A DNA stretch of 64,000 nt from a plasmid. Of the stretch, positions 953 to 63,770 are shown piece after piece (positions within the stretch are counted from its first letter, which is position 1; each line of letters opens with the position of its first letter). A model generated the notes under the pieces. That model ran no database searches. It worked only from the letters and a program-made list of their open reading frames with translations, and was not told the DNA's origin. Made by a program: the position numbers and the translations under genes. The DNA lies in sequence record NZ_CP084013.1. One strand, 5' to 3'.

Positions 953-982
953 TGCTACACTGAATGTGGCCACATAAAAAAA
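953..982 (+). promoter_or_regulatory. degenerate copy of the recurrent promoter-like motif (TGCTACACTGAATGTGGCCACATAAAAA) upstream of parA
   Basis: About 20/26 matches to the TGTTATACTGAATATATCCACATAGA consensus seen at five other sites; lies 57 bp upstream of the parA ATG. Confidence 0.4.
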
Positions 983-4808: not shown

Positions 4809-4840
4809 TATGCCTGTTAAACTGAATATATCTACATAGA
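4809..4840 (+). promoter_or_regulatory. recurrent promoter-like motif copy (TATGCCTGTTAAACTGAATATATCTACATAGA)
   Basis: Extended -10 like TGTTAAACT; ATG of ORF 4843 lies immediately downstream. Confidence 0.5.
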
Positions 4841-4842
4841 GT

Positions 4843-5242: not shown

Positions 5243-5274
5243 ATGCCTGTTATACTGAATATATCCACATAGAT
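5243..5274 (+). promoter_or_regulatory. recurrent promoter-like motif copy (consensus: TATGCCTGTTATACTGAATATATCCACATAGA)
   Basis: Extended -10 TGTTATACT; RBS GAAGGAAGA and ATG 5295 downstream. Confidence 0.55.
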
Positions 5275-15199: not shown

Positions 15200-15721
15200 T
15201 CACGCTGGTCTGTTCTGGTTCTCGATATACCGTTTCAGCGTGTCCAACGGCGCACCGCCCGCCGTGCCCGCGTAGTAGCTGGGCGACCAGAGGCGTTGCG
15301 CCCTCCAATAGTGTCGGGCGAGTTCGGGGTAGTCGCGTCTCAGGTATCGGCTGGACACTCCCTTGAGGCTGTTGACGAGTCGGCTGAGTTCCACGGTCGG
15401 GGGAAACGATACGAGCAGGTGCACGTGGTCGGTTTCGCCGTTGAACTCCTCCAACCGGCAGTCGAACGAGGCGCACACGTCGGAGAATATGCGTTCCAAC
15501 GCCTTCAGGTGCTCGTCGGTGAACACGTCGTGCCGGTATTTGGTGACGAAGACCAAGTGCGCATGCAAATCGTAGACGCAGTGCCGTCCCTTACGAATAT
15601 CGTTTGTCTTATCCATGAAGACCAAGTATAATACCAAACATGAGTTCCTACAGGCGATACAACTACCGCGCCTACCCAACGCAAGGGCAGCGCGAGGCAT
15701 TGTCATGCCTGTACGGCGCAT
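15200..15721 (-). CDS. tnpA: IS200-family TnpA
   Basis: HLVFVTKYRHDVF and DHVHLLVSFPP HuH motif. Confidence 0.8.
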   Translation of the reverse strand: MRRTGMTMPRAALALGRRGSCIACRNSCLVLYLVFMDKTNDIRKGRHCVYDLHAHLVFVTKYRHDVFTDEHLKALERIFSDVCASFDCRLEEFNGETDHVHLLVSFPPTVELSRLVNSLKGVSSRYLRRDYPELARHYWRAQRLWSPSYYAGTAGGAPLDTLKRYIENQNRPA

Positions 15722-16926
15722 GCCGGTACGCGTACAATTGGACGCTCGACCAGCGGGAGCTTATGCGTCGCCGACATGGGCGAATGCAGTCCTGCACGCA
15801 GTTGAGCAACATGTTCACCCTATGGAAGCGAGAACCCGGCATGGAATGGCTTCTGGCCGTATCATCCACGCCTTTACAGCAGTCGATACGCCACGCGGAC
15901 ATGGCCTACCGGAACTTCCTTCGCCTCTACAAGGCGGGCAGGACGCATATTGTGACCAACCGCCGTACCGGGAAGAAGCGTCGCACGGGGCTGCCCCGGT
16001 ACAAGAGCCGCAGGGACGGGGAGCAGTCGGCCGAGTTCACCAAGTCCGCGCGATTCAAGGTCGGGCATGCGGACGGATGCAAGTGGGCGTTCCTCACGCT
16101 CCCGAAAATCGGGCGGGTCAAGCTCCGTTGGACTCGCGAACTGCCGTCCAAGCCGAACACCGTCACCATCATGAGGCATGCGGACGGCTCTTACGAGGCG
16201 AGCTTCACCGTGCAAGTCGATGACAAGGCCGACGCGCCCGAGCCGCTGCATGAGGCGTGCGGCATCGACATGGGGCTTGACTCGCTCATGAGCATCGTCT
16301 ATACGGACGGCACACGCGAGAAGATACCCCACCCGCGCACCCTGAACCGCAAGATGCGCAGACTGCGCAAACTCGACAAACAACTGGCAAGGGAAACGAA
16401 AGGCTCGAACAACCATGCGAAGACACGACTTCTGAAGGCCAAGACCTACGGTCGGATACGGAACCAACGCCGGGACGTGGCGTACAAGCTGGCATCCAAG
16501 GTGGCGGGCGAGAACCAAGCCGTCGCCTTGGAGACCCTGAACGTCAAAGGACTTGCCCGCACCTGCATGGCGAAGAGCCTGTTGGATGCGAACTGGACGC
16601 GTATCATCGACCGCATCCAACAATTGGGCGTCCAATATGGCAGAACCGTCAAACGCATCGACCGCTGGTATCCCAGCAGCCAAATCTGCTCCCAATGCGG
16701 ACGCCGCGACGGACGGAAACCGTTGGACATACGCGAATGGGAATGCCCGCAATGCGGCATACGGCTCGACCGTGATTGGAACGCCGCACTGAACATCCTC
16801 GACGCCGCGGGACTCGCGGAGTCGCTAAACGCCCGTGGAGGCGACGTAAGACGGAGACTGGCGCAAACCGGTCGCAACGCGGACGCCCGTGAAGCGGGAA
16901 CCCGCCGAACCGCAAGGCTTCATTAA
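15640..16926 (+). CDS. tnpB: TnpB (IS605 OrfB family)
   Basis: 428 aa; zinc ribbon CSQCGRRDG...CPQCG; 5' end overlaps the divergent tnpA. Confidence 0.85.
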   Translation: MSSYRRYNYRAYPTQGQREALSCLYGACRYAYNWTLDQRELMRRRHGRMQSCTQLSNMFTLWKREPGMEWLLAVSSTPLQQSIRHADMAYRNFLRLYKAGRTHIVTNRRTGKKRRTGLPRYKSRRDGEQSAEFTKSARFKVGHADGCKWAFLTLPKIGRVKLRWTRELPSKPNTVTIMRHADGSYEASFTVQVDDKADAPEPLHEACGIDMGLDSLMSIVYTDGTREKIPHPRTLNRKMRRLRKLDKQLARETKGSNNHAKTRLLKAKTYGRIRNQRRDVAYKLASKVAGENQAVALETLNVKGLARTCMAKSLLDANWTRIIDRIQQLGVQYGRTVKRIDRWYPSSQICSQCGRRDGRKPLDIREWECPQCGIRLDRDWNAALNILDAAGLAESLNARGGDVRRRLAQTGRNADAREAGTRRTARLH

Positions 16927-16988: not shown

Positions 16989-18302
16989 TTAGGCGTTGAG
17001 CGGTGTGCCGCAGTTTGGGCAGAAGTTGGTTTGTCCGTTCAATGGCTGACCGCATTTGGGGCAGTTGTTCGTTATTGCCGGCTGGGGGATAGGGGCTGGG
17101 ACGGGTGAGGTCGCAGGCATCGGCACAGTGTTCGTCGCCGGCGCTGCTGGCGCAGGAGTCTGTTGCTTGACTGCCGAGGTGAACAGTCTGACGACACGTG
17201 GCGGAATATTGTCCACCGGCAGCAGGCTCAGGGATTGGATTTCCGCAACCAACTGTCCAGGCGTCACGACACGAACATTGCCCGGCCATGCGGCTTCGCT
17301 GACATCCGGGTTGCCGTTATGTCCGCCCGGTACCATGCAGACCATCCATTGGGCCGCCACGTGATAGGTTTCGAGCGTGGACGCCCAATTATCGCGTTGG
17401 GTTGCCATGTTCTCGCTCATCTTGACCACGGGTGTTCCGTCCGAGCCTTTGATGAGGGCTCGACGGCTGATGCTCATGCGCACCAGGTTTCGTGGATCCA
17501 GGTTCACGTATTTGGTGTCGCTGCCGCCCTTGTAGTTCTTCGCGTCCACGAACCAGGCATGCACCTGCTGTTGCGGGTCTATGCCGACCAGCACGCAGTC
17601 GATGTCCGCGTTGATGGGCTGGCGGTTCTCGTTGAGCCCGTACAGGGACCAGAAGGAGATGACGTTGAGCCGCATGTAGGCGATGATTCTGGCCAATGCG
17701 GATTCGCCCTGCTGGCCGGCCTGTACGGCCGTGTTTCCGAAAGCGGAATAGTCCAAGCCGGAACCCGGATCGCCGTACAGTTTCCCGAGCTGGCGTTCCT
17801 GTTGCAGGTTCGCGTTGAGACTGGCCTCATACAACGGGTCGGGGGAGCCGCCGTTGTCGTGGTCTATCACGAACCAGCCATAATAGGAGTCCTCGTTGCT
17901 CATGGCGGCCACCAGCCCGTATCGGGGTGCAAGACGGTTCAGCTCCGTCTGCGTGTCCATAATGAGGGAATTGCTTGTCGGCTGTGGTTCGCCATCGTCA
18001 AGACTCAGGATGCCGCGCAAAACGGCACCTCCGATAAGCGCGATAACCACACCTATCATGAGCTGGACGAACCCCAGTCCATTCGTCGCAGTCGATTCAC
18101 CAGTACCGGCGAATGGCCGTATCGCATAATCAATACCCAGCGACATGACGATCGCGGATATTAATCCCCCCACGCCCGTATAGATTCTGTCCCGCATGGT
18201 CTTGCAGAAAACCACGCGGACTATCACTGCACTGATGCCTACCATCATGGCGATGATTCCGATACCATTGAGGTCTTGCAGGAACGGGTCCAGATGTCCC
18301 AT
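16989..18302 (-). CDS. membrane protein with NERD-like nuclease-related domain and C-terminal double zinc ribbon
   Basis: Two N-terminal TM helices; GE...DIDCVLVG...VDAKNYKGG NERD-like motifs; CPKCGQPLNGQTNFCPNCGTPL at the C-terminus. Confidence 0.5.
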   Translation of the reverse strand: MGHLDPFLQDLNGIGIIAMMVGISAVIVRVVFCKTMRDRIYTGVGGLISAIVMSLGIDYAIRPFAGTGESTATNGLGFVQLMIGVVIALIGGAVLRGILSLDDGEPQPTSNSLIMDTQTELNRLAPRYGLVAAMSNEDSYYGWFVIDHDNGGSPDPLYEASLNANLQQERQLGKLYGDPGSGLDYSAFGNTAVQAGQQGESALARIIAYMRLNVISFWSLYGLNENRQPINADIDCVLVGIDPQQQVHAWFVDAKNYKGGSDTKYVNLDPRNLVRMSISRRALIKGSDGTPVVKMSENMATQRDNWASTLETYHVAAQWMVCMVPGGHNGNPDVSEAAWPGNVRVVTPGQLVAEIQSLSLLPVDNIPPRVVRLFTSAVKQQTPAPAAPATNTVPMPATSPVPAPIPQPAITNNCPKCGQPLNGQTNFCPNCGTPLNA

Positions 18303-18315
18303 GATTTATCTCTCC

Positions 18316-18834
18316 TCAGCTATGCAATGGCTGGCTATATTCCAAAATCCGACGGTAGTCCTCCAAAAGGAATACCGTGACATCCATCTCACAGGACATC
18401 TGATAGATCTCGCCATCATATTCCCGTTCGGCCTGCACATAGTCCGCCGGGTCGATCAGAAACATGGCGGTTTCACGGCGCACACGCCATTCGGCATGGC
18501 TTTTCCCGTATTCCGCATGCGAATCATCGGCGTGCAGCCAGTGGAACAATTCATGGGTGAGAGAGCATCGTTTCTGCACGTCGGTCATATGCTCGTCGAT
18601 GATTATGGTCTGGATAGCCTCACAGTAGAGGCCTGAAGTGTCATCGTCAAGCGTGGCTTCGATGACGTGGACTGGCTGGGTTTCCACGGCATCGAGCATC
18701 TGCTCGTAGGTCATGCCACGGTTGATGGGCATGTGGCGGTCGAATTGTGCGGCCGTTAGCACGGTTGAATATCCTCCTATCGAATCGGTTCGAGAAGAGG
18801 ATACTCTGACAGAACAGGGGCGAGCAGTCGTCAC
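18316..18834 (-). CDS. ImmA/IrrE-family metallopeptidase
   Basis: HEXXH zinc-binding motif HELFHWLH in a 172-aa protein directly downstream of, and overlapping, an XRE regulator gene. Confidence 0.7.
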   Translation of the reverse strand: MTTARPCSVRVSSSRTDSIGGYSTVLTAAQFDRHMPINRGMTYEQMLDAVETQPVHVIEATLDDDTSGLYCEAIQTIIIDEHMTDVQKRCSLTHELFHWLHADDSHAEYGKSHAEWRVRRETAMFLIDPADYVQAEREYDGEIYQMSCEMDVTVFLLEDYRRILEYSQPLHS

Positions 18835-19406
18835 TAGCGGCCGTCACCGCCTTCCATTTCCGCGAGCTTATGCGGATCCTTGTTCGCCGCCAGGGACACG
18901 TCGCCCCTACGTAGTTTCTCCAATACGATACGCTTACGCTCCTCATCGGTGAGGGAGTCCGGCCTAGTGGCACCCTCACCTGCGTTCCCGGATTCAATTT
19001 CGGTTGACGGGGAATGTTTCCGTATTGGCCGTCTTTCTTCGTCGCTGACGAGCAGCGGGGATGACGATCCGTCGAGGATTTGAACGATATCATCACCGTC
19101 CATGACCGCGACGAACTGATACGAGGAGAACGAGTCGGCTCCCGTGGCTTCGGGGTGCGAATGGTCGGCTTTGAAATCGACATATGAAGTCAGCTGGCCG
19201 AATGTCATCCTCCAAAGCTCGCACATGCGTTCGAGGTCGGCTATACGCCATTCCTGCTCGTCGTTTACCCGTTCTCGGACGTATTTTTCGCTGCGCTTGA
19301 TTCCACGCGCCAACGCACGGTTGGATAAACGACGTATGCCCATCTGGGATTTGACGCCGATGTTGATTCGTCGAGCGAATTCGCTGACCTCGATCTTCGT
19401 TGCCAT
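18834..19406 (-). CDS. XRE-family HTH transcriptional regulator (cI/ImmR-like)
   Basis: N-terminal HTH (LSNRALARGIKRSEKYVRERVN); divergent from a cro-like gene; ATG-TGA overlap with the ImmA gene. Confidence 0.65.
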   Translation of the reverse strand: MATKIEVSEFARRINIGVKSQMGIRRLSNRALARGIKRSEKYVRERVNDEQEWRIADLERMCELWRMTFGQLTSYVDFKADHSHPEATGADSFSSYQFVAVMDGDDIVQILDGSSSPLLVSDEERRPIRKHSPSTEIESGNAGEGATRPDSLTDEERKRIVLEKLRRGDVSLAANKDPHKLAEMEGGDGR

Positions 19407-19425
19407 GTCTCTATTCTACAGCTTT

Positions 19426-19520
19426 TTGCGTCTATTTAATGCGTCACGCCGACACGCCGATACTATTTGCGCCTACATGGACGCACCTGTATAACCTTAA
19501 ATGCGCCCACATAGACGCAA
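19426..19520. promoter_or_regulatory. three 18-20 bp operator-like repeats in the divergent intergenic region (TGCGYC-N6/7-GACGCA) with a TATAAC -10-like element
   Basis: R1 19426..19447 TTGCGTCTATTTAATGCGTCAC; R2 19468..19487 TTGCGCCTACATGGACGCAC; R3 19501..19520 ATGCGCCCACATAGACGCAA. Confidence 0.55.
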
Positions 19521-19545
19521 CGGATACATAGGAGACCTTTTCAAA

Positions 19546-19809
19546 ATGACAAACCGCAAGGAAACACCATCAAGAACCGGAAAAGCGATCCGCGACCGGA
19601 TAAACGCGATTATCGGAATCAACCGACATTCGAACTACGAAGTCGCCCGCATCATCGACAAATCCGAACGCTACGTGCGTGTCCACCGCAAGGGCGATCT
19701 CGAATGGAGCCTGGGGGATGTTGAACGATACGGGGCGGCCACCGGCTACACGCCAGGCGAAATCATGGCGGACACGTTCGCAATAAAGCCGGCCATGAAC
19801 AAGCGGTAG
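19546..19809 (+). CDS. small Cro-like HTH protein
   Basis: ATG after AGGAGA RBS; HTH-like NYEVARIIDKSERYVRVHRKG; divergent from the XRE repressor. Confidence 0.5.
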   Translation: MTNRKETPSRTGKAIRDRINAIIGINRHSNYEVARIIDKSERYVRVHRKGDLEWSLGDVERYGAATGYTPGEIMADTFAIKPAMNKR

Positions 19810-19835
19810 CGCTGGTCCATCGCTAAGGAGCTTAT

Positions 19836-21077
19836 ATGAGGCAATATGCTCTAATACATCGGGCCATCCTAGACGATCCGAGCTGGCGATGCCTGACACG
19901 TTCGCAGCAGAACCTGTATCTCCTGCTGCTACTGAAACTTTCGACCAATCTCTGCGGCATCGTTGACTGGCGTCCTAAAAAGCTTGCCGTTAACGCTTCG
20001 GATATGACTGTCGAGACGATAGAAGCCGATGCCGTCGTCTTGGAGAAGAAACTCTATATCGTACGAGATGAGGACACCGATGAAGTGCTGATACGTTCCT
20101 TCTTACGAAACGACGCGCCTCTCAAAAGCAGTAAGACAGCCATCGCTGTTCGCTCTAGCTACACGGATACAGCTTCGTCGAAACTGCGTGGAGTCATCGT
20201 TTTCGAATTGCAGCGGCTGTACAAGGAGCAGCGTGACTGGCAGGGATGGGATCAGGTTAGGGACCTGCTTGACCTGCCATCAATCGACCCCCGGAGAATT
20301 GTGTCAGGAGGTGAAGAAGCGGTATCCGATGCTCTCAACCGGTATCAGGAAAGCTCTTTCTCTCCTCCACGGGATACCTCATTCGATACCCCATCGGATG
20401 GGGTATCTCAAGGGGTATCTCAAGGGGTGTTGGATACTCCATCGGATGGGGTATCTCAAGGGGTATCGGATACCCAATCCGATTCATATTCTCCCCTTAT
20501 ACCTAATACCTTATACCCAATACCTAATTCCTCTTTCCGTGCAAAAAATGAAAAATCGGCGGACGAGTCCGCCTCAGAGCCTGAAAACGAGAATGCTTCT
20601 TTCGAAGCTTCTCAGAGTTCCAGCAGGGTTGAGGAAACCTCTCCGATTCAGAAGAAACCGTCCGCGGTTTCTTCGAAGAAGAGAAAAGTTCCGAAAAAAG
20701 AGAAGAAGCCCGCGACCCGTCAGACCGTGTTGGCTCCCGACTGGAAGCCCTCGCCCGAACTGCGCATCGCCACGGCCAAGGCGGGAGTCAACCTGATCCG
20801 CGAAGTCACCCTGTTCGTCGCCTACTACACGCAGGAGAAACCCGAACACCGCAGCGCCAACTGGGATGCCACATACAGGCGTTGGCTCGAACGGGACATC
20901 CAAAACCTGAAAATGGGGCGCGACCCCAACAACATCGCGCTACACCCGGAGAACCTGCCGACGAACGGCAGGCTGCCGAAGAGCATGCTGAACGACATGC
21001 ACAATGCGGAAGTCCAAGCGCGGGCCGCCGCCTGGGACGAAGCCCATCCGCGAGAGGAGGAATTCGATGAACTTTAA
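19836..21077 (+). CDS. replication initiator / replisome-organiser-like protein with an origin-like iteron array inside the ORF
   Basis: 413 aa; structured N- and C-terminal domains separated by a low-complexity linker encoded by the repeats at 20371..20530. Confidence 0.45.
   Translation: MRQYALIHRAILDDPSWRCLTRSQQNLYLLLLLKLSTNLCGIVDWRPKKLAVNASDMTVETIEADAVVLEKKLYIVRDEDTDEVLIRSFLRNDAPLKSSKTAIAVRSSYTDTASSKLRGVIVFELQRLYKEQRDWQGWDQVRDLLDLPSIDPRRIVSGGEEAVSDALNRYQESSFSPPRDTSFDTPSDGVSQGVSQGVLDTPSDGVSQGVSDTQSDSYSPLIPNTLYPIPNSSFRAKNEKSADESASEPENENASFEASQSSSRVEETSPIQKKPSAVSSKKRKVPKKEKKPATRQTVLAPDWKPSPELRIATAKAGVNLIREVTLFVAYYTQEKPEHRSANWDATYRRWLERDIQNLKMGRDPNNIALHPENLPTNGRLPKSMLNDMHNAEVQARAAAWDEAHPREEEFDEL
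20371..20530. repeat. iteron array / putative replication origin
   Basis: Five GGGGTATC iterons, two 23-bp near-palindromes GATACCCCATCGGATGGGGTATC, then five 7-bp tandem repeats (T/C)AATACC. Confidence 0.55.
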
Positions 21078-21603
21078 CGAAGCTCTGCAGGTGCTGCGCC
21101 GCATCAACGTACATCACGGGAACGCGCCAATCAGCGACGCGCAGGCCCAATGCTTCTACGAGGAGCTGTCCAGATCGGTGTCGTTCGACGAGGCCAACGC
21201 CGCGGTACGGGAATTCTACGCATTGCATCCTCACGGCGAATGGATGACGGTGGGGGATATCAACCTCGCCGTGAGAAGGAAACGACGGCAGTCGATGCCA
21301 TCGGAGGCGACCATCACCCGGCTGATGGAGGAGAACCAGATTTCCGACCCCGACGAGATGTGGCAGTTCCGACGCTCTCTGCTCAAATCATTGGGCCGTG
21401 GCCGTCCCGCCACGCAGGCGGTGCAGCGTGCGTTGGAATTGTCCCGTCACCCGATGCTGGGCGGCCCGAGGGACGGGGCGACGAAAAGCCTGCCGCAGAC
21501 ACGGCCGGGGGGAAACCCCGATCCACGCGATCCGGCCCCGGTCACGACCGTCGTCCAAAGCATCATCGGCGGACTCTCGGCTCGGCCGCATCGGGCGGAA
21601 TAG
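21067..21603 (+). CDS. hypothetical protein
   Basis: ATG 21067 overlapping the end of the upstream gene; 178 aa. Confidence 0.35.
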   Translation: MNFNEALQVLRRINVHHGNAPISDAQAQCFYEELSRSVSFDEANAAVREFYALHPHGEWMTVGDINLAVRRKRRQSMPSEATITRLMEENQISDPDEMWQFRRSLLKSLGRGRPATQAVQRALELSRHPMLGGPRDGATKSLPQTRPGGNPDPRDPAPVTTVVQSIIGGLSARPHRAE

Positions 21604-21674
21604 CCCCCCGGACATCGCAAGAACATCGAATCAAAAAAACGCCATCAGAAAAAACCGATTGGAGAAAAAAACAA

Positions 21675-22115
21675 ATGGCAGACATCACCACACAAACAAT
21701 CCGAGACACCTTCTTGGACAACCTTCCCGAAAACGTGACGCGCGAGGAGGGGGAGGAGTTCTGGAACGCATGGCTGGACAGGCAGCGCGAAGGGCATGAA
21801 CCGGACATGCCGACACCTCCGGTCGGATTCCAGTACGCACCGGGCGAAGTGGACGAATTCGACTACGGCGAACCGGACTTGGAAGACGAGCAGCTGACTG
21901 AGGACCAGAAGCGAGACATGCTGGGACTGGTGCATGATTATGCGATGAACACGTCGGAACTGGCACGCACCATGCTGGACTGCCAGCATTTCGACGACCC
22001 GCAGGTCCGGGAGCTCGTACGTCAGACGTTCAAGGATCTCGAATGCGCCGGAAGCCACGTGTCTGACGCTTTGAAGCTGATGGGTTGGACCGCGGACGAT
22101 GCGACGGTCGGCTGA
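21675..22115 (+). CDS. highly acidic hypothetical protein (146 aa)
   Basis: ATG 21675; strongly D/E-rich composition. Confidence 0.4.
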   Translation: MADITTQTIRDTFLDNLPENVTREEGEEFWNAWLDRQREGHEPDMPTPPVGFQYAPGEVDEFDYGEPDLEDEQLTEDQKRDMLGLVHDYAMNTSELARTMLDCQHFDDPQVRELVRQTFKDLECAGSHVSDALKLMGWTADDATVG

Positions 22116-22256
22116 CTTCGCTTCCGTTGCCGTCGATGCCGGGCCATGCGGCAACGGAAGAAAATCGGTTATTTTCAATAAAAAACCGGTTAATTACAAA
22201 CCCTGAGGTTACAGTGGGAACTGTTTGAGAAAACTCAGGCAAGGAGAACCCTCGAA

Positions 22257-24584
22257 ATGACCAAACGTAACAGCAGCGGTCTGCGCAATGCGGGCACCAT
22301 CGCCACCGTCGCGGCATTGACCCTCGGCATGGCGGGGCCCGGCGTCATGACGGCCACCGCCGACGAAAACACCGCGAACGGCAACACCGGCACCAGCGCC
22401 GCCCAAGCCACGCAGGAAGTCAAATACACGACCACCGTGGCAGGCACGCCAGTCAACTTCACGAAGGACAGCAAAGGCGATTACACGGCAACCGTCCCCA
22501 AGGTCACAGGCAAGTTCCAAAACCAGGTGATCGTGTCCGGCACAGACAAGTCCCAGACCACTCTGACCACCAGCCAGAAACCTACGGACGGGAAAATCAG
22601 CGGCCCCGTCGTCTACACCAGTGCCGACGATTCCGCGCCCAAGTTCACGCTGACCGTCACGGATTATGAAATCGTCGAAGACCAAGCGGCCCAATGGAAC
22701 GCCACCGTTGAAGGCGAGACATACCCTCTCGACGTGAACGGTGACACCGCATCCAAGGACCTGCCCGAAGTCGCCTCCTATCCGGGCGACATCACCGTCA
22801 CCGACGGGACAACCACCATCACGCTGACACCCGAGTGCCAGAACGTCACCGTGAAATCCGGCGACAAGCTGGGCCAGCTGAACGTATCCGGCACCGCCGT
22901 CTACAAGCATGCCGCCGACGCGACGAAGAACACTCCGGCATTCAACGTGACACTGCCGTTCGCCTACACCTCGGGCACCCCGGTGACCGTGGACGGCACC
23001 GAAACGGAACTCACCAAGTCTGATGACGGAAAATACCATGCGGATTACGCCGGTCCGACATTGGACGAATCCAACAAGCCCAGCACGGACACGGTGACCC
23101 TCACCGGCATCAAGACCACACTGCCCATCCAATGGGGCAAAGACGTGCAGGTTGTCGATAAGGGAACCGGCGACACCGCCAGCAAGTTCGTACGCCTCAC
23201 CGGAACAGCTTCCGGCGAAGTCACCATCCAGGATGACGCCAGCGGGGAAAACGTCACCGTGCCGGTGGAAGTGGATGTCACCGCGGATCGAGCCCAGGAC
23301 AAGAGCTTTACCGGCCTGACCGTGACCCGCACCAACGCTAAAGGCGAAACCACCGTATACGACGGGGCCAAAGACTTCAATGCGAAATTCAACCCCAGCA
23401 CCCATGAATACACGCTGACCCTACCGGCCGATGCGGTCGGCGACAGCTACACGCTGGGCCTCACCCACGGTGTCGACGCCCAGGCATCCAAGCCGACGCT
23501 CGCGCTCGGAGAGGGAGCCTCCCGCGTGCTCAAGGTGAACGTGAACGGAGCCGACTACACGGTTAACGTGAAATTCCAGCCGGCCGACCTGAAAGCAGAT
23601 TCCCCTGCGAAACTCACCGGACTGTACGTGAACAAGACCGGCGAGAACACGAAGGGCCAGCTCATCGACAACTGGGATCCGAACCGGCTCGACTACGTGC
23701 TCGCACTGGGGGAGAAGGATCCAAGCCCGTATGTGCTGCCCGAAGCGCCTGACGGAGTCACCATCAAGGGCGGCAACATCACGCAGAACGCGCAATCCAC
23801 CCGCCAGGAATGGATCGTCACCGACACCGCAACCGGCGTAAGCCGCACCTACAGCCTGACAGTGACCAGGCCGGTGAAAACCGCCGTCACCGAATTCAAG
23901 CCGGCAGACCCAGCGAAGCAGGATTCCACGGTGGACCCGGAAAGCCAGCAGGACACCAATCTTGCATCGCACGGCTACACCGGCAAGGACGGCAAATACG
24001 TCGTATCAGACAAGGGTTCCTACGAGATTCCCGAGGGTGGAACATTCGCCTATGAGCCGAAGAACGGGCAATCCGCGACCGTCACCGTCGCACATGAGGG
24101 CATGACCTACACGTACACGGTCAACGTGCTCGCGCCGGACGGTTCGACCTTCGCGCAACACACGTACACCGTCACCTACATCACGGCGGCCACGCACAAG
24201 GCGCAGCTCACAGGCATCCTCGTGGACGGTACGGCCGTCAAGGGCTTCGACCCGGCCAGACACGAGTACAACGCATCCGTGAACGATCCGGACGAATGGA
24301 TGGTCTCCCCGCAGTACGACAAGGCAAGCGGCATGACCGTCAGCACCGAGAAGAAGGGTGCGGACGCCACCATCACCGTCACATCCGGTGACGGATTGGT
24401 CAAGACCACCTACAAGGTGCATGTCACCCGCAAACCATTCGGCGGCAACGGGAACAATGCGCTCGGACTCGCCTCCACGGGCGTCGGCGGCGGAACCGTA
24501 GCGTTCCTGTCGATGGCGTTGATGGCTATGGGAGCGGTTCTCGGACTCGTTGCACGTCGGCGCCAGCGCGGACGCAGCTTCTAA
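22257..24584 (+). CDS. cell-wall-anchored surface protein (LAXTG sorting signal)
   Basis: N-terminal signal peptide; C-terminal LASTG + hydrophobic helix + RRRQRGR tail. Confidence 0.7.
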   Translation: MTKRNSSGLRNAGTIATVAALTLGMAGPGVMTATADENTANGNTGTSAAQATQEVKYTTTVAGTPVNFTKDSKGDYTATVPKVTGKFQNQVIVSGTDKSQTTLTTSQKPTDGKISGPVVYTSADDSAPKFTLTVTDYEIVEDQAAQWNATVEGETYPLDVNGDTASKDLPEVASYPGDITVTDGTTTITLTPECQNVTVKSGDKLGQLNVSGTAVYKHAADATKNTPAFNVTLPFAYTSGTPVTVDGTETELTKSDDGKYHADYAGPTLDESNKPSTDTVTLTGIKTTLPIQWGKDVQVVDKGTGDTASKFVRLTGTASGEVTIQDDASGENVTVPVEVDVTADRAQDKSFTGLTVTRTNAKGETTVYDGAKDFNAKFNPSTHEYTLTLPADAVGDSYTLGLTHGVDAQASKPTLALGEGASRVLKVNVNGADYTVNVKFQPADLKADSPAKLTGLYVNKTGENTKGQLIDNWDPNRLDYVLALGEKDPSPYVLPEAPDGVTIKGGNITQNAQSTRQEWIVTDTATGVSRTYSLTVTRPVKTAVTEFKPADPAKQDSTVDPESQQDTNLASHGYTGKDGKYVVSDKGSYEIPEGGTFAYEPKNGQSATVTVAHEGMTYTYTVNVLAPDGSTFAQHTYTVTYITAATHKAQLTGILVDGTAVKGFDPARHEYNASVNDPDEWMVSPQYDKASGMTVSTEKKGADATITVTSGDGLVKTTYKVHVTRKPFGGNGNNALGLASTGVGGGTVAFLSMALMAMGAVLGLVARRRQRGRSF

Positions 24585-50966: not shown

Positions 50967-50998
50967 CTTATTTTTTCTATGTGAACATATTCAGTATA
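50967..50998 (-). promoter_or_regulatory. recurrent promoter-like motif copy driving ssb (rc: TATGCTTGTTATACTGAATATGTTCACATAGA)
   Basis: Extended -10 TGTTATACT; RBS AAGGAGA and ssb ATG downstream on the minus strand. Confidence 0.55.
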
Positions 50999-51152
50999 AC
51001 AAGCATATACGAAGAAAAGGCATGTCGGATAAGCATCAGGACAGAGGAGAAAAACCTGACACCAATCCGACATACCCCTTTTAGCAGGATGGGCTCACTC
51101 CACTACGGCGGAATGAGCCCATCAAGGTTTCTATCCGATCAGCGTGACCGTC

Positions 51153-63562: not shown

Positions 63563-63622
63563 CAGGCTCGCTGCCCTGTTGTTTGATGTTTTCCGAGCAT
63601 GATTGGTGCCTTCTACGAAAAT

Positions 63623-63654
63623 TTTATGTGGACTAATTCAGTATAACAGGTATT
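63623..63654 (-). promoter_or_regulatory. recurrent promoter-like motif copy (rc: ATACCTGTTATACTGAATTAGTCCACATAAAA)
   Basis: Extended -10 TGTTATACT on the minus strand; heads the minus-strand gene array 63562..58100. Confidence 0.5.
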
Positions 63655-63725: not shown

Positions 63726-63758
63726 ATATGCCTGTTATGCTGAATATGTCCACATAGA
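63726..63758 (+). promoter_or_regulatory. recurrent promoter-like motif copy (ATATGCCTGTTATGCTGAATATGTCCACATAGA), divergent from the copy at 63623..63654
   Basis: RBS GAAGGAGAG and ATG 63771 downstream. Confidence 0.55.
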
Positions 63759-63770
63759 AGGAGAGTTCCA

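What the first reader, a model, noticed from the sequence alone, without database searches (positions are those of the whole stretch)
19407..19545. Divergent cI-like/cro-like intergenic region with three palindromic operators; one shares a 9-mer with the recurrent promoter motif
The region between the XRE repressor gene (minus strand) and the cro-like gene (plus strand) carries three 18-20 bp sites: TTGCGTCTATTTAATGCGTCAC, TTGCGCCTACATGGACGCAC and ATGCGCCCACATAGACGCAA. The last two are TGCGYC-N6-GACGCA inverted repeats flanking a TATAAC -10-like element. This is the layout of an OR1-OR3 style genetic switch. Site R3 contains CCACATAGA, the same 9-mer that forms the most conserved downstream part of the six-copy promoter motif (TCCACATAGAA). 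If this is not coincidence, the Cro/cI-like pair could regulate the distributed motif-bearing promoters as one regulon.
Basis: partly seen in the sequence, partly recalled or inferred. Interest (0 to 1): 0.6.

Follow-up and report, generated by a model that had tools for sequence, protein, structure and literature searches.

The report
Megaplasmid repressor switch; motif link coincidental
The 139-bp region is the control region of an ordinary ImmR/ImmA-type repressor switch of phage origin on a Bifidobacterium longum megaplasmid, and the 9 bases it shares with the plasmid-wide promoter motif are a coincidence, not a sign of a common regulon.

Summary
The window is part of a pMP7017-family Bifidobacterium longum megaplasmid. 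The sites are real. Two 18-bp palindromes (19468-19485, 19502-19519; TGCG-N10-CGCA) occur nowhere else in 64 kb and flank a TATAAC -10-like hexamer. The third site (19427-19444) keeps only its left half here, but is a full palindrome in related elements.

The flanking genes are a 190-aa XRE-type HTH repressor followed by an ImmA/IrrE metalloprotease (leftward), and an 87-aa paralogous HTH protein followed by a phage-type replication initiator (rightward).

Five natural immunity types keep the same architecture. Their palindromes change together with the HTH proteins, not with the replication protein. That supports the operator reading.

The regulon idea fails:
- The recurrent promoter motif is already published (Dineen 2024, 34 bp, regulator unknown).
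- Only 9 of 49 copies carry CCACATAGA; the family consensus is CCACATAAA.
- A random 139-nt region shares a 9-mer with the motif about 10% of the time.
- The motif lacks the TGCG/CGCA arms.
- Plasmids with swapped switches keep 21-22 unchanged motif copies and have no 9-mer at the switch.

Verdict: a new member of a known kind, of modest interest.

The parts
18834..19406 (-). ImmR-like repressor gene (190 aa). N-terminal XRE-type five-helix HTH (residues about 9-73), a flexible middle part, and a conserved C-terminal tail (LTDEERKRIVLEKLRRGD..GGDGR).
   Evidence: Pfam HTH_26 scores 20.7 bits, just under the 22-bit cutoff. AF2 model has pLDDT about 90 over residues 9-73. Foldseek top hits are C.BclI, ClgR, SinR, DdrO-N and lambda cI NTD. 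phrog_4583 'transcriptional repressor'. The tail is invariant across immunity types.
18316..18762 (-). ImmA/IrrE-family (M78, COG2856) metalloprotease gene with an HELFH motif. It lies co-directionally downstream of the repressor gene.
   Evidence: PF06114 scores 26.4 bits against a cutoff of 22. phrog_87 metallo-protease, E 3e-16. RefSeq homologues are annotated ImmA/IrrE family metallo-endopeptidase. It is 97% / 81% identical between immunity types A/B/C.
16989..18302 (-). Conserved 437-aa protein with a hydrophobic N-terminus and a C-terminal zinc ribbon, 13 nt downstream of the protease gene. Probably in the same leftward operon; role unknown.
   Evidence: Zn-ribbon Pfam hits. Same position in types A, B and C.
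19413..19418 (-). Leftward -10 hexamer TAGAAT, 6 nt before the repressor ATG. This predicts a leaderless repressor mRNA.
   Evidence: Read from the sequence. The same arrangement (TAGAAT / TACAAT / TAAGAT, then 6 nt, then ATG) is seen in types A, B, C and D; in type E the called start needs adjusting. Not experimentally mapped.
19427..19444 (.). The left half-site is intact and the right half is degenerate. It lies next to the leftward -10, in the -21 to -38 region of P_L.
   Evidence: It is in register, 40 bp from O2, with full palindromes TGCGTCATTCTGAACGCA and TGCGTCATTTTGGTCGCA in types D and E.
19445..19460 (.). Tandem CACGCCGA CACGCCGA repeat containing the box ACACGCC (19452-19458). This box is conserved between O1 and O2 in all five immunity types. 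Function unexplained.
   Evidence: Anchored comparison of the five intergenic regions.
19468..19485 (.). O2 (R2): TGCGCCTACATGGACGCA, an 18-bp palindrome overlapping the -35-like TTGCGC (19467-19472) and the spacer of the rightward promoter.
19490..19495 (+). Rightward -10-like hexamer TATAAC, 17 nt after TTGCGC.
   Evidence: Identical TATAAC between O2 and O3 in types A, C, D and E. Type B has a canonical TTGACA-17-TAATAT at the same position. The consensus scanner did not call it because position 6 is C.
19502..19519 (.). O3 (R3): TGCGCCCACATAGACGCA, an 18-bp palindrome over the predicted rightward transcription start. Its centre holds the 9-mer CCACATAGA (19507-19515).
   Evidence: Counterparts are TGCAACCATATAGACGCA (type D), CGCGACCATACAGACGCA (type E) and TGCGACGAGGAACACGCA (type C).
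19546..19809 (+). Cro-like gene (87 aa). An XRE-type five-helix HTH protein, paralogous to the repressor's DNA-binding domain. SD GGAG at 19531-19534.
   Evidence: BLASTP against the repressor N-terminus: 32% identity, E 1e-9. Shared recognition-helix motif (K/R)SE(K/R)Y(V/I)R. AF2 pLDDT 84.9. Foldseek hits SinR, ClgR, DdrO-N and C.BclI. phrog_4583.
19836..21077 (+). Phage-type replication-initiation protein gene (413 aa), the first gene after the Cro-like gene. It contains an iteron-like cluster of GGGGTATC/GATACCCC repeats (20370-20470), followed by an AT-rich stretch (about 20480-20560).
   Evidence: phrog_3171 'replication initiation protein', E 5.8e-40. 32-34% identity to RepA-like initiators of Arthrobacter, Gordonia and Mycobacterium phages. 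Repeats.
21067..22115 (+). Two small genes of unknown function (178 aa, 21067-21603; about 146 aa, 21675-22115). They complete the probable rightward operon, which is followed by a 12-bp-stem hairpin at 22121-22160.
   Evidence: Gene order is conserved in RefSeq relatives. Hairpin read from the sequence. No + strand terminator-like site was found before it.

Best explanation
The region 19407-19545 is the operator/promoter region of an ImmR/ImmA-type immunity switch of phage ancestry, carried by a pMP7017-family Bifidobacterium longum megaplasmid.

Leftward, a -10 (TAGAAT) lies 6 nt from the ATG and should give a leaderless mRNA. That mRNA encodes a 190-aa XRE-HTH repressor, an ImmA/IrrE metalloprotease and a zinc-ribbon protein. 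Rightward, a weak promoter (TTGCGC-17-TATAAC) drives an 87-aa paralogous HTH protein (Cro-like), a phage-type replication initiator with iterons inside its own gene, and two small ORFs.

Inferred mechanism:
- Repressor dimers bind the 18-bp TGCG-N10-CGCA palindromes O2 (over -35 and spacer) and O3 (over the start site), and so occlude the rightward promoter.
- O1, next to the leftward -10, serves autoregulation.
- On an inducing signal the ImmA-like protease cleaves the repressor. The constant C-terminal tail is the likely recognition or oligomerisation module.
- The Cro-like protein has the same recognition-helix motif. It then occupies the same sites and turns down the repressor promoter.

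Shown here: the sites, the folds, the paralogy, and the co-variation of sites with HTH proteins. Inferred: binding, cleavage, promoter positions and direction of regulation.

The 9-mer shared with the plasmid-wide 34-bp promoter motif is the centre of the O3 palindrome and is coincidental. The HTH pair does not control the motif-bearing promoters.
For: Identity of the element: 96-97% identical to B. longum megaplasmids and 78% to pMP7017.

Sites: unique and strongly enriched.

Proteins:
- M78/IrrE domain above the Pfam cutoff, with HELFH; phrog_87.
- Both HTH proteins model as five-helix XRE domains.
- They are paralogues.

Natural experiment:
- Five immunity types share the layout ATG / -10 / O1 / ACACGCC / O2 / -10 / O3 / SD / ATG. 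Spacings are 40 and 34-35 bp (types A, C, D, E) or 41 and 40 bp (type B).
- Type B has an unrelated HTH head (repressor 44% identical overall with a different N-terminus; Cro 16%) and entirely different palindromes (ATCTC-N4-GAGAT, three copies). Its protease is 97% identical and its repressor tail is the same.
- Types A, C, D and E keep the SE(K/R)Y(V/I)R helix and keep the TGCG..CGCA arms.
- Types B and C share the replication-protein N-domain (90% identical) and its iterons (TCGCGAGA...), yet have different palindromes. Type A has other iterons (GGGGTATC), yet palindromes like type C. So the palindromes follow the HTH pair, not Rep.
- In the whole type B and type C plasmids, exact cognate palindromes occur only at the switch.
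- Of 55 metagenome loci, about 22 are type A, 29 type B (one of them a recombined contig) and 4 type C.

Against the regulon link:
- The motif is the published 34-bp pMP7017 motif (PMC10832533).
- 49 copies give the consensus ...GTCCACATAAAA; only 9 of 49 hold CCACATAGA.
- Motif PWM score of the in-register switch segment is 8.3 bits, against 39-48 for true copies. Five random coding-sequence sites beat O3 on the downstream-box PWM.
- Chance of a shared 9-mer is 0.096.
- 22 and 21 motif copies persist in the type C and type B plasmids.
- The G/A state of the motif does not track immunity type.
Against: - No binding, cleavage or transcript-start data exist for this module. The two pMP7017 papers do not mention it.
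- Pfam HTH hits are all just below the gathering cutoffs. HTH membership therefore rests on predicted structures built from shallow alignments (9 sequences).
- TATAAC lacks the usual T at position 6, and the consensus scan finds no canonical promoter in type A.
- O1 is degenerate in types A and C.
- Sequence diversity within type A is too low to test selection on the centre of O3.
- Weak affinity of the type A proteins for the minority of motif copies with CCACATAGA cannot be formally excluded in silico.
Confidence: 0.78

Rival explanations
1. One reading: the ImmR-like / Cro-like pair recognises CCACATAGA and also regulates the distributed motif-bearing promoters.
For: The exact 9-mer is shared between O3 and 2 of 6 motif copies. 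The 9-mer occurs only 3 times in the window against 0.15 expected. With the full motif PWM, the in-register switch segment ranks 7th of about 128,000 positions, directly after the six true copies. The motif's regulator is unknown (PMC10832533).
Against: - The rank-7 score comes entirely from the 9-mer. The other 13 upstream positions contribute about -2 bits.
- The motif lacks the TGCG/CGCA arms, which are the only bases conserved across operator types A, C, D and E.
- The family consensus is CCACATAAA; only 9 of 49 copies have the 9-mer.
- Type B and type C plasmids have different switch proteins and operators, no 9-mer at the switch, and unchanged motifs in 21 and 22 copies.
- No cognate operator lies at any motif promoter.
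- Type D carries a motif variant GTCCACACAAAA while its O3 centre is CCATATAGA, so there is no co-variation.
- Type A plasmid CP146883 has the A variant at an orthologous copy.
- P(chance 9-mer) is about 0.1.
Confidence: 0.04
2. The palindromes are binding sites (origin or autoregulatory sites) of the adjacent phage-type replication initiator, not of the HTH proteins.
For: The A/B recombination cassette (window 18950-20543) also includes the N-terminal domain of the replication protein. The A-versus-B comparison alone therefore cannot separate the two candidates.
Against: - Types B and C share the Rep N-domain (90% identical) and its iterons but have unrelated palindromes. Types A and C have different Rep N-domains and iterons but related palindromes.
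- Distinct iteron clusters plus an AT-rich stretch lie inside the rep genes, as in lambda ori.
- In types D and E other genes separate the Cro-like gene from any rep gene, yet the palindromes stay between the repressor and Cro-like genes.
- The sites overlap -35, -10 and the start site, as operators do.
Confidence: 0.03
3. The XRE-COG2856 pair is a self-contained two-gene module (toxin-antitoxin-like or defence-like) that only autoregulates. There is no bistable switch and no control of the rightward genes.
For: XRE-COG2856 pairs occur widely outside mobile-element switches (my own knowledge of the comparative-genomics literature). A conserved 437-aa zinc-ribbon protein of unknown role follows the protease gene.
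Against: - Two of the three sites bracket the rightward -10 and start, not the repressor promoter.
- The rightward first gene is a paralogous HTH with the same recognition helix, conserved in all five types.
- There are no significant PADLOC hits.
- The gene order repressor | Cro-like - replication initiator is the classic temperate-phage early region. Relatives sit in phage-like contexts, including Bro-N/ANT and P22_AR_N genes and phage BigBern1.
Confidence: 0.08
4. O3 acts at the RNA level, as a 5'-UTR hairpin that affects stability or translation of the Cro-like mRNA, rather than as a DNA operator.
For: O3 lies in the predicted 5' UTR and is an inverted repeat.
Against: - The predicted fold is weak and no better than shuffles (-5.4 kcal/mol, z = -0.24).
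- There is no Rfam family.
- The sister site O2 has the same sequence family but lies upstream of the predicted start.
- The arms, not the pairing potential as such, change with the HTH type.
Confidence: 0.03

Closest known systems
ImmR/ImmA of ICEBs1 (Bacillus subtilis) and related modules such as TnSmu1
   Same: An XRE-type five-helix HTH repressor with a short C-terminal helical part. It is co-transcribed with a COG2856/M78 HEXXH metalloprotease that acts as anti-repressor by cleaving the repressor (ImmR is cleaved at F95-M96; PMC8960796). It is divergently arranged from the operon it represses and resides on a conjugative element. The short repressors of types D and E here (123-133 aa) match the size of ImmR (127 aa).
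   Different: No integrase follows the protease; a zinc-ribbon protein does. The divergent operon starts with a paralogous Cro-like HTH and a phage-type replication initiator, not xis and conjugation genes. There is no detectable sequence similarity to ImmR beyond the fold. Cleavage is untested. The host is an actinobacterial megaplasmid.
Lambdoid phage immunity region (cI-OR-cro, then the O/P replication genes with ori inside O)
   Same: Divergent repressor and Cro genes. Three related operators shared by two proteins. A replication initiator follows cro, with iterons plus an AT-rich stretch inside its own gene. Immunity and replication specificities are exchanged as cassettes between relatives (types A-E here; imm434 / imm21-style mosaics there).
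   Different: The repressor has no S24 (LexA-like) self-cleaving domain; a separate protease is encoded. The Cro-like protein is an XRE five-helix paralogue, not the lambda Cro fold. The operators are spaced 34-41 bp centre to centre rather than abutting. The repressor mRNA is leaderless from a promoter next to O1.
DdrO/IrrE (PprI) of Deinococcus
   Same: An XRE HTH repressor inactivated by a COG2856 metalloprotease. The DdrO N-domain is among the best structural matches to both HTH models.
   Different: It is a chromosomal stress regulon with a dispersed palindromic motif (RDRM) at many promoters. Here the cognate palindromes are confined to the switch itself.
The 34-bp pMP7017 promoter motif (Dineen et al. 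2024, PMC10832533)
   Same: It overlaps an extended -10 (TGnTATACT), is followed by GAATATGTCCACATAAAA and an RBS, and is restricted to this plasmid family. There are 6 copies in the window, 22 in pMP7017 and 21 in CP065398.
   Different: The switch region is not a member. It shares only the 7-9 nt core CCACATA(GA). The -10 is 3 nt out of register. The PWM score is 8 bits against 39-48 for true copies.

Membership tests
ImmR/ImmA-type (XRE repressor + COG2856 protease) module | Repressor with an N-terminal XRE/cI-type helix-turn-helix domain | tested here: met
   AF2 model residues 9-73 form five helices at pLDDT about 90. Foldseek probability is 1.0 to C.BclI, ClgR, SinR, DdrO-N and lambda cI NTD. 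Pfam HTH_26 gives only 20.7 bits against a cutoff of 22, so the sequence evidence alone is sub-threshold.
ImmR/ImmA-type (XRE repressor + COG2856 protease) module | Adjacent co-directional gene for an M78/IrrE metalloprotease with HEXXH | tested here: met
   PF06114 scores 26.4 bits, above the 22-bit cutoff, and the HELFH motif is present. phrog_87, E 3e-16. The gene starts 71 nt after the repressor stop.
ImmR/ImmA-type (XRE repressor + COG2856 protease) module | Repressor binding sites in the intergenic region facing a divergent regulated operon | tested here: inconclusive
   Sequence-level support only: unique palindromes over -35, -10 and the start site, which co-vary with the HTH type across five immunity types.
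ImmR/ImmA-type (XRE repressor + COG2856 protease) module | Site-specific cleavage of the repressor by the protease upon an inducing signal | not testable with these tools
   Indirect only: the repressor C-terminal tail and the protease stay constant while the DNA-binding head is swapped.
ImmR/ImmA-type (XRE repressor + COG2856 protease) module | immR-immA-int operon and control of excision and conjugation genes (ICEBs1 layout) | tested here: not met
   No integrase is present; a zinc-ribbon protein follows. The divergent operon encodes the Cro-like protein and a replication initiator. This is a feature of ICEBs1 itself rather than of the wider module class.
Lambda-type cI/OR1-3/Cro switch | Repressor with a C-terminal S24 (LexA-like) autoproteolytic domain | tested here: not met
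   No Peptidase_S24 hit. The C-terminal part is a beta-hairpin, a disordered linker and one helix.
Lambda-type cI/OR1-3/Cro switch | Three adjacent operators (3-7 bp apart) overlapping both divergent promoters | tested here: not met
   Start-to-start spacing is 40 bp (O1-O2) and 34 bp (O2-O3). O2 and O3 bracket the rightward -10, and O1 sits by the leftward -10.
Lambda-type cI/OR1-3/Cro switch | A second small protein binding the same operators, encoded first in the divergent operon | tested here: inconclusive
   The 87-aa protein is a paralogue with the same recognition-helix motif, so shared sites are likely. Binding is untested. The fold is XRE, not lambda Cro.
pMP7017 34-bp promoter motif (Dineen 2024) | Match to TGTTATACTGAATATGTCCACATAAAA with the -10 in register | tested here: not met
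   17 of 27 identities. PWM 8.3 bits against 39-48 for true copies. TATAAC is 3 nt out of register. There is no similarity outside the 9-mer.

The most novel reading that the evidence does not exclude
The switch gates a phage-derived, lambda-style replication module: a Cro-like gene followed by a replication initiator with its own iterons and AT-rich stretch. This module sits inside a conjugative megaplasmid whose normal replication depends on RepB. Induction through the ImmA-like protease would then fire a second origin. That would make the pMP7017 family a plasmid-phage chimera with an inducible replication mode. The exchangeable immunity types (at least 5) and replication types (at least 2) would govern exclusion or compatibility between co-resident megaplasmids in the infant gut. 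The ACACGCC box, conserved in all immunity types, would be the docking site of a still unknown common factor.
Probability: 0.25. Interest if true: 0.55.

Novelty: new member of a known kind. Interest (0 to 1): 0.3.

Why it matters
pMP7017-family megaplasmids are common in infant-gut Bifidobacterium longum. About a quarter of their genes sit behind a 34-bp promoter motif whose regulator is unknown (PMC10832533). This analysis removes one tempting candidate regulator for that motif.

It also documents a regulatory module that the two pMP7017 papers do not mention: an ImmR/ImmA-type switch with defined candidate operators, at least three immunity types among the megaplasmids (five including related elements), and a downstream phage-type replication initiator with internal iterons.

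That gives concrete, cheap experiments: EMSA, reporter fusions, and head-swap between types A and B. It also offers a possible handle on induction, incompatibility or superinfection immunity of these plasmids. As biology it is an expected kind of module, so the value is local rather than general.

Tried and rejected
- Canonical promoter scan of 19300-19650 found nothing. The promoter assignments therefore rest on position and on conservation across types.
- Rfam search of the region gave only a noise hit, mir-302 (E 0.43). RNA folding of the 5' UTR was not better than shuffles.
- Sequence search of both HTH proteins against PDB chains gave nothing meaningful. NCBIfam gave no hits and PADLOC no significant ones.
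- Two genome-contig scans with the protease (alignment A4 and the type D protein) found no loci. The hosts of types D and E therefore remain unknown.
- Within-type-A variation (22 loci) was too low to test selection on the O3 centre. All changes fall outside the half-sites, except one in O1.
- Locus L064, which looked like a further type, is a type B region truncated or recombined on a low-coverage contig.
- I considered that the G/A difference in the motif (CCACATAGA versus CCACATAAA) might track immunity type. It does not: CP146883 (type A) carries the A form at one orthologous copy.
- I looked for mentions of the switch genes (p0027-p0031) and of expression data in the pMP7017 papers and supplement, and found none.
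- I considered the HTH regulator p0129 as a candidate motif binder. It is not encoded in this window and I did not pursue it.

Full report
**What the window is.** The segment 18300-21100 is 96-97% identical to two Bifidobacterium longum megaplasmids (CP143940, CP146883) and partly similar (78%) to pMP7017 of B. breve. The window also carries ParA, several IS200/IS605 tnpA/tnpB pairs, FctA-type pilin-like and InlB-repeat surface proteins, and DNA methylases. It is therefore about one third of a pMP7017-family conjugative megaplasmid.

**Checking the observation.**
- R2 (core 19468-19485, TGCGCCTACATGGACGCA) and R3 (core 19502-19519, TGCGCCCACATAGACGCA) are 18-bp inverted repeats flanking TATAAC (19490-19495).
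- TGCGYC-N6-GRCGCA, and even TGCG-N10-CGCA, occur nowhere else in 64 kb.
- Five of the eight TGCGYCYAY half-sites in the window lie in these 139 bp. No Markov simulation of the region gave more than one.
- R1 is not palindromic here: TGCGTC TATTTA ATGCGT, followed by a direct-orientation TGCGTCAC.
- The 9-mer CCACATAGA is shared with the motif copies at 5265 and 63750 only.

**The genes.**
- Leftward: a 190-aa protein (18834-19406), then an M78/IrrE metalloprotease with HELFH (18316-18762; PF06114 above cutoff; phrog_87), then a 437-aa zinc-ribbon protein.
- Rightward: an 87-aa protein (19546-19809), then a 413-aa protein that matches phage replication-initiation families. The matches are phrog_3171 at E 5.8e-40 and 32-34% identity to RepA-like initiators of actinophages. 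Two small ORFs and a hairpin at 22121-22160 follow.
- Pfam HTH hits are all just below cutoff, so I modelled both small regulators.
- The 87-aa protein (pLDDT 84.9) and residues 9-73 of the 190-aa protein (pLDDT about 90) are five-helix bundles. Their best structural matches are XRE-family domains: SinR, ClgR, C.BclI, DdrO N-domain and lambda cI NTD.
- The two are paralogues (32% identity, E 1e-9). They share the recognition-helix motif (K/R)SE(K/R)Y(V/I)R.
- The rest of the repressor is a beta-hairpin, a disordered linker and a C-terminal helix. There is no S24 domain.

**Comparative test of the operator reading.** Complete plasmids and 55 metagenome loci recovered through the conserved protease, plus two relatives found through the repressor, give five immunity types.
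- All five share one layout: repressor ATG, 6 nt, -10 (TAGAAT / TACAAT / TAAGAT, which predicts a leaderless mRNA), O1, a conserved ACACGCC box, O2, -10, O3, SD, Cro-like ATG. For type E the called repressor start needs adjusting.
- O1-O2 spacing is 40-41 bp. O2-O3 spacing is 34-35 bp, or 40 bp in type B.
- Types A, C, D and E keep the recognition helix and keep TGCG-N10-CGCA arms with different inner bases. In types D and E, O1 is also a full palindrome.
- Type B has an unrelated HTH head in the repressor and an unrelated Cro-like protein (16% identity). It has three ATCTC-N4-GAGAT palindromes around a canonical TTGACA-17-TAATAT. Its protease is nevertheless 97% identical and its repressor C-terminal tail is the same.
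- The A/B exchange spans window 18950-20543, which also includes the N-terminal domain of the replication protein.
- That confound is resolved by reassortment. Types B and C share the Rep N-domain (90% identity) and its in-gene iterons (TCGCGAGA...), but have different palindromes. Type A has another Rep N-domain and GGGGTATC iterons (20370-20470), but palindromes of the type C family.
- The palindromes therefore follow the HTH pair. In the complete type B and type C plasmids, exact cognate palindromes exist only at the switch.

**Most likely mechanism (inferred).** Repressor dimers at O2 (over the -35-like TTGCGC and the spacer) and at O3 (over the start site) block the rightward promoter. 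O1, beside the leftward -10, autoregulates. The ImmA-like protease inactivates the repressor on a signal, as ImmA does with ImmR at F95-M96 (PMC8960796). The constant tail paired with a constant protease fits this. The Cro-like paralogue then uses the same sites to shut the repressor promoter. The regulated operon is a phage-style replication module. None of these steps has experimental support, and neither pMP7017 paper mentions the module.

**The proposed regulon.** The recurrent motif is real, with six copies in the window. It is also already published: a 34-bp element overlapping the -10 of 19 pMP7017 promoters, called a presumed regulon with an unknown transcription factor (PMC10832533). 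My scan finds 22 copies in pMP7017 and 21 in CP065398. Seven results count against a link to the switch:
1. The consensus of 49 copies is TGTTATACTGAATATGTCCACATAAAA. Only 9 of 49 contain CCACATAGA.
2. The in-register switch segment scores 8.3 bits against 39-48 for true copies. All of that score comes from the 9-mer. Five coding-region sites beat O3 on the downstream-box matrix.
3. A random region of this size and composition shares a 9-mer with some motif copy in 9.6% of trials, and 14 other places in the window do so.
4. The motif has none of the TGCG/CGCA arms that define the operators.
5. Plasmids with type B or type C switches have no 9-mer at the switch, yet keep the motif unchanged.
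6. Type D pairs an O3 centre CCATATAGA with a motif variant GTCCACACAAAA.
7. The G/A state of orthologous motif copies does not follow immunity type.

**Comparison with known systems.** The module works like ImmR/ImmA of ICEBs1, and in gene order like a lambdoid immunity-replication region. It meets the two testable defining features of the XRE + COG2856 class. It fails the lambda-specific features (S24 domain, abutting operators) and the ICEBs1-specific layout (integrase, xis). A 52%-identical HTH with a divergent Cro-like ORF in Bifidobacterium phage BigBern1 points to phage ancestry.

**Verdict.** The switch interpretation is supported, with corrections. The regulon interpretation is not supported. 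This is a new member of a known kind, of modest interest.

Noticed in passing
window 953-979 (+), 4815-4841 (+), 5248-5274 (+), 50975-51001 (-), 63622-63648 (-), 63733-63759 (+): Six copies of the published 34-bp pMP7017 promoter motif: an extended -10 TGnTATACT followed by GAATATGTCCACATA(A/G)AA and an RBS. Its downstream part contains a 12-bp palindrome, TATGT-CC-ACATA, which would suit a small dimeric binder. The regulator remains unknown.
   Followed up: partly
window 19445-19460 (box ACACGCC at 19452-19458); also L002, L003, L072, L075 intergenic regions: A (CG)ACACGCC box between O1 and O2 is conserved in all five immunity types, including type B, whose surrounding sequence is otherwise unrelated. 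In this plasmid it is part of a perfect tandem CACGCCGA-CACGCCGA repeat. No explanation was found. It could be the site of a factor common to all types.
   Followed up: partly
window 20370-20470 and about 20480-20560: Inside the 413-aa replication-initiator gene there is a dense cluster of GGGGTATC/GATACCCC repeats followed by an AT-rich stretch, the layout of lambda ori inside gene O. Types B and C have a different iteron set (TCGCGAGA(C/G)TGTCGCGAGA plus GGAACAG(G/A)G repeats) in their version of the gene. The pMP7017 replication paper treats only RepA and RepB.
   Followed up: partly
L002 4495-5564 (CP065398) and the metagenome loci: The replication-initiator gene is split by a frameshift in CP065398 (182-aa N-terminal ORF plus a separately annotated C-terminal CDS). 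Most metagenome loci have intact ORFs of 349-353 aa or 409-421 aa. The internal repeats may make the gene prone to frame changes or assembly errors.
   Followed up: partly
window 16989-18302 (-): A 437-aa protein with hydrophobic N-terminal segments and a C-terminal zinc ribbon lies 13 nt downstream of the protease gene. It is conserved in types A, B and C. In type D, toxin-antitoxin pairs take this place. It could be an effector or sensor of the module.
   Followed up: no
window 15200-16926: An IS200/IS605 element (tnpA on the minus strand, tnpB on the plus strand) sits between the N6-adenine methyltransferase gene and the zinc-ribbon gene. The close relative CP143940 lacks it at this spot. 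At least four tnpB genes are present in the window.
   Followed up: no
window 22121-22160 and 22257-24584: A 12-bp-stem hairpin follows directly after the last small gene of the rightward operon. Downstream is a 775-aa secreted protein ending in an LASTG-type sorting signal, then pilin-like (FctA) and InlB-repeat giants. Whether the switch reads through into these surface-protein genes is open.
   Followed up: partly
CP065398 record 58902 (inside the type B Cro-like gene): A fourth near-cognate site, ATCGCTTGGGAGAT (one mismatch to ATCTC-N4-GAGAT), lies about 50 bp beyond O3 within the Cro-like coding region of type B.
   Followed up: no
L072-L075 (metagenome contigs): Short-repressor relatives (123-133 aa: HTH plus the conserved tail, without the middle part) sit with the same protease family in phage-like contexts. 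These include Bro-N/ANT and P22_AR_N antirepressor-like genes, HipA, and MazEF and YoeB/Phd pairs. L072 also carries one diverged copy of the promoter motif (TGAGATACTGAACATGTCCACACAAAA).
   Followed up: partly
pMP7017 106600-106900 and CP065398 136700-137010: A 217-aa HTH regulator (p0129-like) is divergent from a DUF2815 gene whose promoter carries a motif-like element. This regulator is conserved in both plasmids but is not encoded in this window. It is a possible lead for the motif's true regulator.
   Followed up: no
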